Below are positions 27,901-39,900 of a DNA stretch of 64,000 nucleotides, piece after piece (position 1 is the stretch's first letter; each line of letters opens with the position of its first letter). A program made the position numbers. The stretch is from an uncultured Planctomycetota bacterium (GTDB taxonomy: Bacteria; Planctomycetota; Planctomycetia; Isosphaerales; Isosphaeraceae). The stretch covers positions 1,696,001 through 1,760,000 of the forward strand of contig CAVTTN010000002.1 of assembly GCA_963737655.1 (NCBI GenBank), read 5' to 3'.

Positions 27901-30900
27901 AGGGTCTGGACCAGGTGCCCCTCGGCCACGGCCTGGCCCTCCCCGACGGCGCGGAGGTAGGGCGAGGCGTCCATCCCCCCGCAAATCGCCTCGCGGTCGG
28001 CCAGGCCCAGCGAGCCCAGGAGCACCCCCCGGACCTCGGCATCGGCGATCGAGGGCGTCTCCACGGTCGTCGGGAACATGGTCAGGGCGTTGAATTCGTG
28101 GTCGAACCAGCGGGTGCGGATCGGGTCGAGCGCCCGGAGGGCCTGGCCCCGGGTGATCCCCCTGGACCGCGCAGCTCGCCGAGGCGGTCGATCGCCGCGA
28201 GGGTCCGCGCCTGGTCGCGGAACAGGAAGAACCGCGAATGGACCTTCATCCTCGGCAGGTTCACGCCGAGGAGGACCGCCGCGATCGCCAGGAGGACCGC
28301 CGGGCCCGTCCGCGATCGGTCCAGGCGGGCCATCGCCGGCCCGATCGCGGCCGAGAGGATCAGGACCAGCCCCACGGCCGGGAACAGATGGTAGCGCTGG
28401 AGCGCCAGGATCACCCGCGAGCCGGCCGTCGAGCGGACCCCGAACGTGATCGCGTAGCCCGAGGCGATCAGGGCCAGGCCCACCAGGAGCATCGGCCGGG
28501 CCGCCGGCCTCTTCGCCGCCAGGACGAGGACCGCGACGGCCAGCGCCGCGCCCAGGGCCAGCGCCGCCGCGTCGGGAACGAACCGTTCGAGGCTGGGCAG
28601 GCCGACCATCCCGGGCAAGAGCACGTCGATCGGGGCGCAGCCGACGTTGCGGAGCCCCGCGACGATCGCCACGTTCCGTTCCAGGCTCTGCGAGAGGACC
28701 TCGCGATAGCCGAACGTCTGGCAGATGGCCAGGTAGGCGAGCGTGCCGACCATCGGCGCGACCGAGCCGGCCAGCCGGCCCCGCCACGTCCCCCGCCCGG
28801 CCAGGATTCGCAGGCCCGCCGAGGGGCCGGCGAGGAGGCCGATCGCCGAGAACGCCGGCGCCACGGCCGAGGCGACCGCCGACCCCGCCAGCCCCAGCCA
28901 CCGCCTCCGCCCCGGATCGGCTCGCCCGGCGAGGTCCAGGGCGGCCACGGTCCCGGCCAGGGCCCAGGTGAAGCTGCTGGCGGAGTACCAGTAGAGGGTC
29001 TCCGACGCCACGGCCGTCATCGCGGTGACCATGACGGCCAGCCACGCCGCCGATTCCGAGCCCGCTTCGCGGCGGACCAGCCGGAAAATCAGGATCAGCG
29101 CCACGACCCAGGGCACGACCGACGCCAGGGTGAACGCCAGGGGGGCAACCGGCAGCCTCCGCCCGGCCAGGCCCCAGGTCGTCCACGACACGACCTCGAA
29201 CAACGGGGCCATGTGCTCGTTGAACGGCCGGAACAGCAGGGCCCGGAGCGGGCTTTCTTGAAGGTGGGAGATCCGGACCACGTCATCGGAATAGAGGCTG
29301 GGGTGGGCGGCCCTCAAGGAGGGCGGGACGATCAGCAAGGCGAGCAGGGCCGCCGGGACGAGCCGGCGGCCGGGGAGGCGAGCTTCGGGACCGGGCATGG
29401 ACGGTCGCTCCGCGGGTCCGGGGCGTGGGGCAGGGTCTCCATCTGAGTAAGAGGGTCGGTCCTGGGGGGGGCGGCCTCGAACCCGCTCGGCCCGGGATTG
29501 TCGAGATCCTCGCCGTCCTGTCACGCCCAGATTCCCCCCGGAGGACCCGCCCCGACCCGGCCGGATGGCGAGACCCTGGGGGTGGGGCAAACGGTGATGG
29601 GCCGACTCTTCCGAAAGTGACGAAGATTCGGGCGCTCATCTTTCGCAGATCCCCGGGACTGCCCGACTGTGACGATCGTCACGACCGGACGACGTAAGTC
29701 CTTGCTAGAAAACGGGAAGGGCGTTCAAGGCGATTCGCGGGGAAGACGATACAACGGTTGGCTCGCCACGGTTCGCCACGGCGAGGACTCGGGAGCACCC
29801 CAACGGGGGTGCCGTCCGGGGGGTGCGGCCTTCGGGCCTCGGGCGCGGGAACGCCCGCCTTCGGACGGCGCCGGACAGATCCAAACGAAGTGGGAGGGCC
29901 TGCCGCGACCGGCCGGCCGGATTTCGTGGCCCCTCTCTCAGACCAAGCTTGCCAAGGAGAACCGTCTCCCATGTTGAAGCCCCTGTCTTTGAGCGTCAGC
30001 CTGGCTGTCGCCCTGGGCGCGTGCAGCCTGAGCCTCGCCGGTGGTCACCTGAAGACCTATGCGTCGGGCCAGTGCGAGACCGTCGCCAGCCCGCAGTCGG
30101 TCGTCCCCTCGGCGCAGAGCATCGGGGAAGGCTGCGGCGAAGTCTGCGGCCCCGTCGCCAAGAAGTCCTGCTTCGGCAACCTCTTCAAGCACAAGCCCAA
30201 GACCTACACCTACGAGTGGGTCCTGAAGAAGAAGCGTTGCGGCGGCCTCTTCGGCGGCGGCTGCGGCACGGCCACGGCCGGCGGCTGCGAGTCCTGCGGG
30301 ACGGCCCTGCCCTCGGCCCAGTACCCGAGCAGCCAGTCTTATGGCAGCGCCCAGTACCCGACGACCTACAGCGCCCCCCAGGGCAGCTACAGCGCCCCGC
30401 AGGCCGGCTACAGCGCCCCGCAGTCCGGTGGCATGACGGCCGCCCCGGCGGCCGCCGCCGCCCCGACGATGGAAGCCCCCCCGGCCCCCGAAGTCGCCCC
30501 GGCCCCGGCTCCCGCCCCGGCCCCGCCGACCAACCCCGCCCCCGCCCCCCCGGCCCCGGCCCCGCCGACGGCCTCCAACGGCGGCCTCCAGCTCCTGCCC
30601 TCGGGCAACTGAGACTCGATCGGCCCCAAGCCGTTCGATCGATCGAAGCCCACGCACCCTCGCGGTGCGTGGGCTTTTTTTCGTGGGGTCGGAGTGCGGG
30701 GTGAGGGTCGATGGGCGGGCGGGGCCCGCCGCCGGTTGGCGCATTGCATGCACCCTGCTTGATGGGAGGCCGGCGCCGACGGCTTTGCTTCGGCAGTGCG
30801 AATTGACAAACGGCGCCGATTGTGGATAACACTGGCCGCGCAGGATGCGATGGGCCTCGCTCCCAAGGATGGGACGACGGCCGACCTCGATCGCTCCGCC

Positions 30901-36900: not shown

Positions 36901-39900
36901 GCCATCTCGACCCGCCCGCCCTGATCTCGGCCGCCGGATCGATCGTCCGAAGCCTGTTCTTCGCGCTGGGGGTCGCCACGCTGGCCCTGGGCCTGATCGA
37001 CCTGGCGATCCAGAGGGCGAGGGTCGAGGCCCTCCTGCGGACGACCCCTCAGGAGCAGCGCGAGGACCAGAAAGCCATCGACGGCGACCCCGCCGTGAAG
37101 GCCCGCCGCCACCGCCTGGCGAAATCCTGGAGGAGCGACCCGGGGGAGATCCTCGCCGGGGCGTCGCTGGTCCTGACCGGCCCGGGGAACCTCGCCGTGG
37201 TCCTCGCCGGAGGTCCCCCGCCGGGCCGGATCACCGTCCGGGGCTCGGCCCGGGGAGGCTCGGGCGCGACCCTCGCCAAAGCGGCGAAAAAGGCCGGGAT
37301 CGGCACGATCGACGCCCCCGGGCTCGCCCGCCACTTCGCCCGAGGCGCCTCGGCCGGGCCGGCCCTGCCTCCCGAACTCGACGCCGAACTCACCCGGCTG
37401 TGGGTTCGCCGGGCCTCGGAGGGGCCGCCGAGGAGTCCAGCCGTGGCTCCGGATCGTCTCTAGCGGGGTCGAGGGCGGTTCCTGTAGGTTCCGCTCTTGC
37501 GGACCTCTTCGATTCGATGAGCTGCCATGAGAGGAGATGCGAAGAGGTCCGCAAGGGCGGACCCCACAAGAACCGCTGAGAGAGCCACGATGTTCGGGAT
37601 CTACGACGACCAGGGAATCCGCTTCGAGTACCCGCCGGGCTGGGAGGTCGAGGTCACCGACGACGGCCCCCGCCGGGTCATCGCGATCGAGTCGCCCGAC
37701 GGACCGGCGTTCGCCATGATCACCGTGGACGAAAACCGCCTCGCCCCGGCCGACATGGCCGACGAGGCCCTGGCCGCCATGCGGGACGAATACCCCACGC
37801 TCGAAGCCGTCCCCGCGCTGGACTCGATCGACGGCCAGAACGCGGTGGGCTTCGACGTCGAGTTCTTCAGCCTGGACATGCTCAACGCCTGCTCGATCCG
37901 CTGCTTCCGAACGCCGAGGCGGACCGTCCTGATCTTCGGCCAGTGGATGGAAGACGACGAGGACGACCCCGGGGCGGCCATCGCGGCGATCGCCCGCTCG
38001 ATCGAGGAGACCGACGCCTGAATCGGTCGATCGGTTACAATGCCGTCAGGGCCGACCGACCGACGGAGGGACGACGATGGCTTCGGCGACCACCCCGCAG
38101 ATCCGCCTGGACGACCGGGGCCGGGCGGTGATCGACGACACCCGCATGAAGGTGAAGATGCTGGTGCTCTCCCGGATCGCCCACGGCTGGGGGATCGACG
38201 AGTTGCAGACTCAATATCCCCACCTCTCCCGAGAGCAGGTCGAGGCGGCCCTGGTCTACTACGACGCCCATCGCGCCGAGATGGACGCCGAGATCGAACG
38301 GGAATATCGGGAGGTGCAGGAGCTGCGGGCCCGGCAATCCCCGAAACAGCCGACGCGGGAGGAACTGGTCGCCAGGTTGGAGGCGATGCGGGCCTCGGGC
38401 AAGCGGCCGTGAGCGTGGCCTTCTACCTCGATCACAACGTCGATCGCGCCGTGGCCGAGGGGTTGCGACTCCGGGGGGTGGACGTCCTGACCGCCCTGGA
38501 GGATGGGACCACGACCCTGGCCGACCCGGACCTCCTGGATCGCGCCTCCGCCCTCGGTCGGGTCATCGTGACCCATGACCAGGACTTTCTCCGGGAAGGT
38601 CCGGCTCGTCAGCGAACGGGCCGGACCTTCGCCGGCATCCTGTACGCGCACCAGCTCGACGTCTCGCTTGGCCGACTGATCGACGACCTCGAATTGATCG
38701 CGCAGGCCCAATCGCCCGAAGATTACGCGGGTCGAGTCCGCTACTTGCCTCTGTGACGCGGATAACGCTCGCCCTCTCTTGAGCCGGCCCGGGCCCGGGT
38801 CACGGGGTGAGCGACCCCGCCGGGAACATGGTTCCGATTCGGGGGCAGTTCTCGTCGAGCAGCGCGTCGATGTTCGCGAGCTCCAGCGACTTGCCGTAGG
38901 CCCGGAGCTTGTCGCGGGTGATGTCGCGGACGAACGGGATGTTCGAGACCGCCTGGAGCTTGATCCACCCGGTCAGCCAGCCCTGCTCGAAACTCTTTTG
39001 CAGGGGGTCCTTTTCGACGTTCGGCAGGTCGGCGATCCGCACGACGTCCACATTTTTCAGCAGGACCGGGGCGTCCTTGTCTACGTCCTTGGCGGTCAGG
39101 ACCAGGGTCTTGTCCACGACCTGGGCCGGGTCGAAGCTGGCGTCGAAGGTGTCGTCGTCGGTGTCCACCGCCGTCCTCCAGGCCTCGATCTGCTGGGCGA
39201 CGACGAGCATCTCCTGCATGACCCGCTCGTTGATGGCGTTCTGCCACTGCAAGGGGTTGGCGGGGATGGCCTTGATGGACGCCGGGCGCAGGGTCGCGCC
39301 GGCGGGGCCTCGGACCGCGAACTTGGACAGGTCCTTGATCCCGTCGATCAGGAAGATGGCCTTCGCGCCCTTCATGTCCGCGTCGCTGGTCCCGAGCTTC
39401 CTCATGGCGTTGCCGACCGTCGAGCCGGCCAGGGCGCCGACGCCCCCGCCGATGAACGCCAGGGCCAGCCCCAGCAGCATGTCCTCGGCGAGCTTGACCG
39501 TGGCGTCGATGTCCTTCAGGACCTTGTTGTGCGCCTCGAACGCGTTGCCGTAGGCGAGGGAGATGCTGCTGAGCCATCCGCTGATGTGGATCTGGGCGAT
39601 CTGCACCTTGGCCACGGCGGTGTTGCACCGGGCGACGAACTGGGCCTTGGCCTCCGCCGTGCGGACGAAGAGGACCTGGGCGCCGATCTTCCGGGCCTCG
39701 GCCTTCAGGTCGAACGTCCCGGCCTGCATGTGCGCCTTGCCGGTCGCGCCGTGGGGGTCCAGGGGCACGTTCCATTCTTCCCACGTCTTGGACCCGGTCC
39801 ACCGGGTGACCAGCTTCCCGTTGTCGATCTTCCAGGAGCCGGCGCCGGTCATCCCGTTGAGCGGGTCGCTCCAGTTCACGGCCCCCTGCGCGGTGAAGTT

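What a model noticed while it worked through the whole genome (the two positions that open the first line are those of the whole stretch)
30845..37463. Family-wide flagellar export gate with sigma28/FlgM but no filament, hook, rod, stator or export ATPase
The genome has an intact fliF-fliG-fliO-fliP-fliQ-fliR-flhB cluster here, flhA-flhF-flhG-fliA at C2:5747565-5752986 and flgM at C2:3348543, but no flagellin, rod/hook, FliE, MotA or FliI. The same minimal set is fixed across Isosphaeraceae, so these non-motile planctomycetes keep a filament-free, ATPase-free type III export gate; FlgM is the only known substrate left, which suggests a FlgM/sigma28 export switch or a new substrate.
Evidence so far: Pfam identities of the genes. 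Counts include G000: FlhA 61/61, no stops inside matches; FliP 41/41 (120); FlgM 31/31 (122); FliN 31/41, not found in G000 (116, 119). Flagellin_N 0/61 (105); Flagellin_C 0/31 over cut (189); Flg_bbr_C 0/61 (107); T3SS_ATPase_C 0/41 (118); FliE 0/21 (213); MotA_N 0/21 (214). Positive control: Flg_bbr_C found in 21 of 31 other Planctomycetia (121). A sigma28-type promoter (TAAA-N16-GCCGATGA, consensus recalled) lies upstream of flgM at 3348251-3348278 (142, 143). Paper searches 110, 123, 124 returned nothing.
(Added by a program. Inside this text positions count along the whole contig: contig position 1,696,001 is position 1 of the stretch shown here. "Call 12" and the like, gene names such as g00115 and contig names such as C1 are that model's own, and its searches are not shown. 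The text may have been shortened before it was handed on; [...] marks where a part breaks off. The agent that wrote the report below was given it as the finding of a first reader that could run no searches.)

Follow-up and report, generated by a model that had tools for sequence, protein, structure and literature searches.

The report
Flagellum-free export gate in planctomycetes
Several groups of non-swimming planctomycete bacteria have thrown away the flagellum but kept and remodelled its membrane export pore, most likely to pump out the inhibitor of a master gene regulator, so a motility checkpoint may have become a stand-alone signalling device.

Summary
Confirmed and wider than reported. 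The window holds fliF-fliG-fliO-fliP-fliQ-fliR-flhB; fliF is frameshifted here, probably an assembly error. In 29 of 29 well-assembled family genomes FlhA, FlhB and FlgM are present; rod/hook, flagellin and FliI are not found. Eight genomes of five other planctomycete families show the same reduction, and an FlhA tree rejects a single origin. Every reduced FlhB examined has lost the NPTH switch motif, and many stop before the cleaved domain. This mirrors Salmonella mutants that export FlgM without rod or hook. FliF lost its beta-collar and FliG its middle domain, while the pore and FlhA stay under purifying selection. Sigma28 is in 121 of 121 class genomes. FlgM keeps its N-terminal half where the native gate is kept and loses it where the gate is gone (only 2-3 independent contrasts). 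Best reading (0.5): a polar, proton-driven FlgM exporter controlling sigma28. Against it: 49 of 57 family FlhB keep an uncleavable domain, a state that blocks FlgM export in Salmonella, and gate-less relatives keep sigma28. No expression or secretion data. This scan noted similar loci before on other DNA (e1-7071153, e1-2343781); my ten paper searches found no description.

The parts
29724..29752 (+). sigma28-type promoter-like site (TTCAAG, 15-16 nt, GACGATA) upstream of the gene before fliF
   Evidence: matrix not trained on this gene scores 14.3 bits here and 11.7-17.0 bits upstream of 9 of 9 orthologues examined
29971..30612 (+). 213-aa Cys/Pro-rich protein with a hydrophobic, signal-peptide-like N-terminus; no family match; predicted sigma28 target, conserved just upstream of fliF in many relatives; probably not a type III substrate
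30645..30687 (+). intrinsic-terminator-like hairpin separating that gene from the fli operon
   Evidence: 14-bp stem with T tail
31082..32562 (+). fliF, MS-ring protein; in G000 in two frames (31082-31987 and 31978-32562); relatives one ORF of about 460-530 aa; beta-collar region replaced by a low-confidence Pro-rich loop
32559..33125 (+). fliG-a, 188 aa: FliG_N joined directly to FliG_C, middle (FliM-binding) domain deleted
33118..33426 (+). fliG-b, 102 aa, second FliG_C-like copy, found in only part of the family and in G103
33755..34234 (+). fliO
   Evidence: PF04347 above cut-off
34231..35073 (+). fliP, export-gate pore subunit
   Evidence: PF00813 E 2.7e-62; dN/dS 0.10-0.30
35211..35471 (+). 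fliQ
   Evidence: PF01313; dN/dS 0.07-0.38
35491..36264 (+). fliR
   Evidence: PF01311; dN/dS 0.18-0.46
36399..37463 (+). flhB with intact membrane part and a folded but diverged C-terminal domain
37179..37190 (+). FlhB residues 261-264 (GPGN) standing where flagellated relatives have the NPT(H/E) autocleavage motif
   Evidence: alignment; 0 of 57 family FlhB keep the motif

Best explanation
The genes encode a rod-less, motor-less remnant of the native planctomycete flagellar type III export apparatus that still exports one late substrate, the anti-sigma FlgM, and so controls sigma28. Proposed steps: (1) FlhF/FlhG recruit the short FliG and FliF to a cell pole and build a collar-less MS ring (inferred). 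(2) FliO helps assemble FliPQR-FlhB with the FlhA ring (inferred from homology; selection shown). (3) With no rod, hook or FliK, the early/late switch is useless: FlhB has lost its autocleavage site (shown) and in many lineages the whole cleaved domain (shown), leaving a gate biased to late substrates (inferred from Salmonella genetics). (4) FlgM is driven by proton motive force into the periplasm without FliI (inferred). (5) Freed sigma28 transcribes flgM, fliA and dozens of other genes, the best-conserved being envelope genes (motifs shown, activity inferred). Gate assembly or energisation would then act as a developmental checkpoint, plausibly tied to budding (speculative).
For: Gate, FlgM and sigma28 present with no rod/hook, flagellin or FliI in 30 of 30 family genomes. 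Same reduction in 8 genomes of five other families, plus a second reduced set beside a different full flagellum in G108 and G114; reduced FlhAs sit among flagellated clades and one clade is rejected, AU p=0.0002. NPx(H/E) absent from 57 of 57 family FlhB and 10 of 10 outside reduced copies, present in 8 of 8 flagellated planctomycete FlhB; 8 of 57 family FlhB stop before or inside the cleaved domain. In rod-hook-less, Fluke-less Salmonella, 10 of 10 gate-dependent FlgM-export mutants map to this domain, including stop codons (PMC13344023 section 6). FlhA D44, R84, R93, K203, D208 and R270 invariant in 12 of 12 aligned, matching by number the charged residues of PMC3139655 (abstract). dN/dS below 1 for every gene and pair; FlgM residues 1-45 at 0-0.11. 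FlgM N-terminal half kept in 22 of 22 native-gate genomes by alignment (18 of 22 by a strict motif) and missing in 19 of 20 without a native gate (strict motif in 1 of 19 scored). Export without the ATPase is possible (PMC4230889 abstract). FlhF recruits FliG-FliF to the pole (PMC11236974 abstract). Predicted FlgM-FlhA(350-700) complex: weak support, 0.51 against best control 0.00, runs share at least 67% of contacts, partner pLDDT at least 60; the mark was reached by 116 of 157 solved and 2 of 215 mismatched pairs, but at 0.60 or under by only 18 solved and both mismatches.
Against: 49 of 57 family FlhB, G000 included, keep a folded, uncleavable C-terminal domain under selection (dN/dS 0.15-0.69); uncleavable N269A FlhB does not switch in Salmonella. 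The Salmonella bypass also needed loss of Fluke and raised flagellar expression, and late export there needs near-wild-type FliI (PMC12802181 abstract). Sigma28 is in 121 of 121 class genomes, and 8 genomes with no FlhA keep an FlgM remnant, so sigma28 can be run without a gate. The FlgM/gate link rests on 2-3 independent contrasts (sign test p about 0.5) and has one exception, G094. Two strong G000 promoter hits (cysE-like gene, alternative sigma70) were not conserved in 5 of 5 relatives, and exported proteins are not significantly enriched among predicted targets (25 of 64, p=0.095). A family-specific SctQ-like plus FliG-middle-like pair suggests richer substrate sorting than one small protein needs. 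No expression or secretion data.
Confidence: 0.5

Rival explanations
1. A repurposed needle-less secretion system: the gate exports one or more unknown non-flagellar proteins into the periplasm, with the family-specific SctQ-like and FliG-middle-like proteins as a sorting platform; FlgM export is secondary or absent.
For: SctQ/FliN-domain protein of about 400 aa in 49 of 61 family genomes, best model SctQ though below cut-off. Partner gene in 23 of 29 family and 0 of 91 other class genomes; nearest atlas clusters are planctomycete and Myxococcota proteins, some with FliG domains. FlhB C-domain remodelled but conserved. FliH-FliI-FliJ-like genes kept in 4 of 8 outside lineages. Precedents: Lysobacter (PMC7688988) and Myxococcus T3SS* (PMC12075869).
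Against: No candidate substrate gene lies in the cluster across 18 loci or stands out among predicted sigma28 targets. The pair is missing from G000 and 6 other well-assembled family genomes that keep the gate. Both precedents keep an ATPase.
Confidence: 0.22
2. A non-export role: the FliF/FliPQR/FlhB/FlhA complex serves as a polar membrane scaffold, ion-conducting sensor or platform for membrane extensions (the nanotube CORE idea).
For: The retained set includes all CORE genes of PMC6456723, which names CORE-only genomes in other phyla. FlhF, FlhG, FliG and FliF, which localise the ring, are kept. No ATPase.
Against: It does not explain why the FlgM N-terminal half tracks the gate or why the switch domain is hit in every reduced lineage. 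The nanotube role is itself disputed (PMC7532143, search listing).
Confidence: 0.13
3. Slowly decaying vestige of a lost flagellum.
For: Longer FlhA branches in reduced lineages; FliF, FliR and FlhB are diverged (27-60% identity); whole gate lost in other planctomycete lineages; stepwise loss of FliI, FliM/N and FlhF/G.
Against: FlhA has no internal stop in 30 of 30 family genomes; dN/dS below 1 throughout, FlhA 0.14-0.15; deletions are clean and domain-precise; the same subset is kept in several origins.
Confidence: 0.09
4. Axial subunits exist but are too diverged to detect, and the gate builds a short unknown appendage.
For: Needle and rod subunits are often missed by profile searches (PMC3459982 passages). 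No structure-based screen of the whole proteome was run.
Against: No hit in G000 with planctomycete axial queries at E up to 0.5 apart from spurious short matches; FliF lacks the beta-collar; no FliK, FliE or ring proteins found in G000; family members make no motile swarmers (PMC5352709 passage).
Confidence: 0.06

Closest known systems
Flagellar type III export apparatus with the FlgM/sigma28 checkpoint (Salmonella, Bacillus; flagellated Planctomycetia)
   Same: FliF, FliG, FliO, FliP, FliQ, FliR, FlhB, FlhA, FlhF, FlhG, FliA, FlgM; reduced FlhAs fall in the native planctomycete flagellar clade; sigma28-type sites before flgM and fliA.
   Different: No rod, hook, filament or FliI found; FlhB cannot self-cleave or lacks the domain; FliF lacks the beta-collar; FliG lacks the middle domain.
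Salmonella laboratory strains lacking rod-hook, Fluke and the FlhB cleaved domain (Chevance et al. 2026, PMC13344023)
   Same: No axial proteins, damaged or deleted FlhB C-domain; these strains export FlgM to the periplasm constitutively.
   Different: They keep FliH/I/J and the C-ring and need raised expression; the planctomycete state is natural, old and repeated, and most family members keep an uncleavable domain.
Flagellar export system of non-flagellated Lysobacter enzymogenes OH11 (PMC7688988)
   Same: Flagellar export genes with a second job in a non-flagellated cell.
   Different: Keeps FliI and the hook-cap substrate FlgD; proposed to export toxins; one strain, not a family-wide gate.
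Nanotube CORE (FliO, FliP, FliQ, FliR, FlhB, FlhA; PMC6456723)
   Same: Same membrane subset; CORE-only genomes were noted.
   Different: No planctomycete named in the main text; its Table S1 row for Isosphaera pallida scores only FliP and FlhA; here FliF, FliG, FlhF/G and FlgM are also kept.
Myxococcus needleless T3SS* (PMC12075869; Myxo system of PMC3459982)
   Same: Type III core without extracellular part, conserved over long times, once read as a relic.
   Different: Non-flagellar lineage, keeps the ATPase SctN, works with Tad pili in predation; no FlgM link.
Chlamydia FlhA/FliF/FliI remnants and sigma28; Streptomyces WhiG
   Same: Flagellar leftovers and a sigma28 used in development by non-flagellated cells (search listings; PMC13595943 passages).
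   Different: Chlamydia keeps FliI and only three such flagellar orthologues are named; WhiG is held by RsiG and c-di-GMP, not by an exported FlgM.

Membership tests
Flagellar type III export apparatus | Export gate FliP, FliQ, FliR, FlhB, FlhA of flagellar type | tested here: met
   Pfam above cut-off; flagellar NCBIfam models score best though below their cut-offs; native flagellar clade
Flagellar type III export apparatus | FlhB autocleavage motif NPTH and intact switch domain | tested here: not met
   0 of 57 family FlhB; 0 of 10 outside reduced copies
Flagellar type III export apparatus | FliH-FliI-FliJ ATPase complex | tested here: not met
   PF18269 0 of 30 family genomes; no FliH/FliJ hit in G000
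Flagellum | Rod, hook and filament proteins | tested here: not met
Flagellum | Stator MotAB and full C-ring FliG-FliM-FliN | tested here: not met
   G000 only for MotAB; FliG middle domain deleted; FliN domain absent from G000 but in 49 of 61 family genomes
FlgM/sigma28 checkpoint | FliA/WhiG-family sigma and FlgM with sigma28-type promoter on flgM | tested here: met
   TIGR02479 above cut-off; PF04316 above cut-off; site in 28 of 29 loci
FlgM/sigma28 checkpoint | FlgM is exported through the gate and this frees sigma28 | not testable with these tools
   only indirect signs
Non-flagellar T3SS (injectisome or Myxo type) | SctV-type export protein, SctN ATPase, SctJ/SctD rings | tested here: not met
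   FlhA model 757 bits against SctV 506; no ATPase; only the accessory SctQ-like gene leans this way
Nanotube CORE platform | All of FliO, FliP, FliQ, FliR, FlhB, FlhA present | tested here: met
Nanotube CORE platform | CORE-dependent intercellular membrane tubes | not testable with these tools
   needs microscopy of mutants
Pseudogenised relic | Stops, frameshifts and dN/dS near 1 | tested here: not met
   the fliF break in G000 is absent from relatives; the highest ratio, 0.79, is FliF in a divergent pair

The most novel reading that the evidence does not exclude
Planctomycetes have repeatedly turned the flagellar assembly checkpoint into a stand-alone signalling organelle: a polar, proton-driven type III pore with its early/late switch removed, whose main job is to export FlgM and so time a class-wide sigma28 developmental programme in one cell of the budding pair. 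It would be a secretion machine that exists to get rid of a regulator, and a natural replay of the Salmonella mutants that defined the switch.
Probability: 0.35. Interest if true: 0.9.

Novelty: new variant of a known kind. Interest (0 to 1): 0.78.

Why it matters
It gives a natural minimal type III export machine, working (if it works) without ATPase, rod or switch, that tests the 2026 model that the FlhB C-domain is a removable lock. It explains why non-swimming planctomycetes keep half a flagellum. It points to sigma28, present in every class genome examined, as an unstudied core regulator in a phylum whose budding cycle lacks known regulators. The three natural states (full flagellum, gate only, no gate), with matching FlgM forms, make the question directly testable.

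Tried and rejected
Sequencing runs: none was listed for the cluster, no RNA holder listed. I first thought the sigma28 site before fliA was gained in reduced lineages; a wider window found sites of 15 bits or more in 9 of 17 flagellated genomes, so it is ancestral. Sigma28 control of the cysE-like gene and the alternative sigma70 gene: not conserved in relatives. Sigma28 sites before fliF, flhA or the SctQ-like pair: none of note. A loose promoter pattern across 61 genomes gave mostly uninformative hits. LEPRxLL-type surface proteins as a target class: 3 of 47 at 12 bits or more, not pursued. The 605-aa FlgI-domain gene is a distant paralogue, 56 bits against a cut-off of 300. Profile comparison of the FliG-middle-like partner with FliG was inconclusive (probability 10%, E 0.003), and no solved structure matched it. 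G172 (FlhA fragment only) was dropped from the reduced set; G155 and G171 have rod/hook genes and were counted as flagellated although flagellin was not found at E<=1e-12. Look-ups of earlier scan findings by place, sequence and two word sets were empty. A passage placing the export signal in the FlgM N-terminus was not found; that point is recalled. Fluke was not searched.

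
Full report
1. Observation. The window carries, on the + strand, fliF (31082-32562), fliG-a (32559-33125), fliG-b (33118-33426), fliO, fliP, fliQ, fliR and flhB (36399-37463). Elsewhere in G000 lie flhA-flhF-flhG-fliA (C2:5747565-5752986) and flgM (C2:3348435-3348719). The closest named FlhA records, 63-70% identical, include two titled Isosphaeraceae, which supports the family name. 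fliF is in two frames in G000 but one ORF in relatives; G000 splits 4 of 29 genes compared, so an assembly indel is likely.

2. Presence and absence. One sample of 121 class genomes (G000, 29 of its family, 91 others, all but G000 at least 92% complete) was searched six ways. In the family plus G000, FlhA, FlhB and FlgM were found in 30 of 30, and rod/hook C-terminal domain, FliI C-terminal domain and flagellin in 0 of 30. The 91 others gave 64, 66 and 63 hits, so the searches work. In a wider family sample that included poor assemblies, FlhB and FlgM were each found in 57 of 61. In G000, 70 planctomycete flagellar and neighbour proteins used as queries found no axial, stator, FliE, FliH, FliJ, FliK, FliL or FliM orthologue. 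FliE and MotA were not re-tested family-wide.

3. It happened several times. Eight genomes outside the family have full FlhA, FlhB and FlgM but no rod/hook or flagellin: G089, G103, G091, G156, G174, G107, G113, G140, in five families. Four of them keep FliI with FliH- and FliJ-like neighbours. G108 and G114 carry a reduced native set beside a complete flagellum of a second type. FlhA trees separate a native clade from that second type, both with support 100, and place reduced copies among flagellated natives of several families. Forcing the 19 reduced rows into one clade is rejected (AU p=0.0002); long branches make the exact count of origins unsure, about four or five.

4. The machine is remodelled, not merely eroded. 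FlhB: the NPT(H/E) cleavage motif is in 8 of 8 flagellated planctomycete FlhB and in none of 57 family or 10 outside reduced copies. Eight of 57 family FlhB end before or inside the cleaved domain, as do most outside copies; 49 of 57 keep a diverged domain with its own GGPPP motif. The G000 model (mean pLDDT 83) keeps the FlhB C-domain fold, best matching uncleavable YscU/EscU mutants (top E 9e-4). FliF (model of the G049 protein, pLDDT 74) matches MS-ring structures, with a low-confidence Pro-rich loop where flagellated relatives have the long beta-collar strands (the collar assignment is my reading). FliG-a is a clean deletion of the middle domain. FlhA keeps D44, R84, R93, K203, D208 and R270 in 12 of 12 aligned sequences; the abstract of PMC3139655 names D45, R85, R94, K203, D208 and R270, with D208 essential (correspondence by number, Salmonella FlhA not aligned). 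dN/dS is below 1 in every pair: FlhA 0.14-0.15, FliP 0.10-0.30, FliG 0.04-0.19, FlhB 0.21-0.51, FliF 0.14-0.79, FlgM 0.02-0.10 (simple NG86 estimates, some pairs near saturation).

5. The regulatory side. The 258-aa sigma28 is found in 121 of 121 genomes, 82-97% identical within the family. A site TT(A/C)AA-N15/16-G(C/T)CGAT lies upstream of flgM in 28 of 29 parsed family loci (30 fetched). A refined matrix finds a site upstream of fliA in 13 of 14 reduced genomes, 0 of 2 with a second flagellum, and 9 of 17 flagellated ones, so this loop is ancestral. In G000, 64 genes score 14 bits or more against 8 in reversed sequence. With the flgM-only matrix, orthologue upstreams scored 9 bits or more in 5 of 5 for an unknown membrane-anchored protein and 4 of 5 for an outer-membrane efflux-family protein, where 4% of G000 genes reach 8 bits; two other strong G000 hits failed in 5 of 5. 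The gene just before fliF has the site in 9 of 9 orthologues. Exported proteins are not significantly enriched among the 64 (p=0.095).

6. FlgM form follows the gate. Eight genomes with no FlhA keep an FlgM hit, and the five tested keep sigma28. In 22 genomes with the native gate, full or reduced, FlgM keeps its N-terminal half; in 19 of 20 without it, only the C-terminal helices align. The profile was built from gate-positive rows; a profile-free motif gave 18 of 22 against 1 of 19 scored. G108 and G114 keep the N-half inside a clade of gate-less relatives. The exception is G094. There are only 2-3 independent contrasts, so this is not significant. That the N-half carries the export signal and the C-half binds sigma28 is recalled, not found in my searches. 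A predicted FlgM-FlhA(350-700) complex gave weak support only (0.51 against 0.00; at such scores a pass is more often wrong than right unless likely beforehand).

7. Mechanism. PMC13344023 (abstract, introduction, section 6 and passages read) shows that in rod-hook-less, Fluke-less Salmonella all 10 gate-dependent FlgM-export mutants hit the FlhB cleaved domain, that deleting it locks late export and blocks early export, and that FliK is then unneeded. The reduced planctomycete systems resemble that genotype. I therefore read the system as a polar FlgM exporter that controls sigma28 (0.5). Shown: gene content, motif and domain loss, selection, promoter motifs, FlgM form. Inferred: assembly, polarity (PMC11236974, abstract), ATPase-free export (PMC4230889, abstract), FlgM as cargo, a link to budding. 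The main difficulties are the uncleavable domain kept by 49 of 57 family members, since N269A blocks the switch in Salmonella; the need for FliI in late export there (PMC12802181, abstract); and gate-less relatives that keep sigma28.

8. An extra module. A 400-aa protein with a FliN-type domain, best matching SctQ but under the cut-off, occurs in 49 of 61 family genomes, preceded by an unknown gene with FliG-middle-like features found in 23 of 29 family and 0 of 91 other genomes. The pair often follows a two-component cluster; G000 has the cluster but not the pair. It keeps the rival reading, export of unknown proteins, at about 0.22.

9. What is known. PMC5352709 (passages) says only that flagellar genes are poorly represented in the family and that members make no motile swarmers. 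PMC6456723 (passages and a supplement search) names CORE-only genomes in other phyla; its row for Isosphaera pallida scores only FliP and FlhA. PMC7688988 (first of six parts), PMC12075869, PMC3459982, PMC12248157, PMC13595943, PMC8306008 and PMC6995999 (passages) give precedents for repurposed gates or sigma28 but none for this system. PMC2830194, PMC10597470 and PMC7532143 were seen as search listings only. Ten searches found no paper describing a retained gate, switch loss or FlgM export in planctomycetes; the library lacks most subscription papers, including many species descriptions, and bioRxiv supplements were not available. Two earlier notes of this scan describe similar loci on other DNA; I saw them after forming my reading, and the lines shown do not mention the FlhB switch loss, the repeated origins or the FlgM pattern.

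10. Verdict. Real, old, selected and repeated; a new variant of the flagellar export apparatus that fails membership of the flagellum. Interest 0.78.

Noticed in passing
L092-L093, L089-L091, L339-L350 (G114, G109 and others): A second, unrelated flagellar system (FlhA clade of 19 rows, support 100, with its own shorter sigma factor) occurs in families f4, f5, f7 and f14; many carriers have lost the native gate, while G108 and G114 keep both. Looks like replacement of the native flagellum by an imported one.
   Followed up: partly
L398:1564-3485, L400:4502-6470 and similar: Family-specific pair of an SctQ-like gene and a FliG-middle-like gene, often right after a PAS kinase and response-regulator cluster; nearest atlas look-alikes include Myxococcota proteins; missing at the matching place in G000 (C2 near 2951700).
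   Followed up: partly
G164:C1:1624468, G128:C1:5629209, G090:C2:357603 and five more: Eight flagellated genomes of family f3 have a second ORF of about 500 aa matching only the cytoplasmic half of FlhA.
   Followed up: no
L104:8631-10973, L108:6764-9220, L109:5235-7085: Long ORFs at the fliF position in three outside reduced lineages, directly before fliH-fliI-fliJ-like genes, look like natural FliF-FliG fusions.
   Followed up: no
L115 (G126:C1:403000-422000): An injectisome-type secretion cluster in an environmental planctomycete, separate from its flagellar genes.
   Followed up: no
window 29724-30687: Cys/Pro-rich protein of no known family with a conserved sigma28-type site and a terminator, kept just upstream of fliF in many relatives; a handy reporter for sigma28 activity.
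   Followed up: partly
G000 C2:2647034-2647231, C2:5220999-5221937, C2:6484700-6487612: Sigma28-type sites of 14-19 bits precede a CsrA-like gene, an RsmH-like gene and a ribonucleotide-reductase-like gene (names from sequence appearance, not searched); conservation not tested.
   Followed up: no
window 225-4497: Several transposase-like ORFs, some in pieces.
   Followed up: no
window 38077-38756: Two small overlapping genes after the cluster, the second with DUF5615/PIN-like matches; a probable toxin-antitoxin-type pair.
   Followed up: no
L105:3780-8295 (G113): A 1073-aa gene followed by 296- and 109-aa genes, resembling Cas9-Cas1-Cas2 by N-terminal sequence, lies just upstream of the reduced fliO-fliP-fliQ-fliR-flhB genes.
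   Followed up: no
G000 C2:88800-90617: 605-aa protein with a distant FlgI-like N-terminal part, unlinked to flagellar genes.
   Followed up: partly
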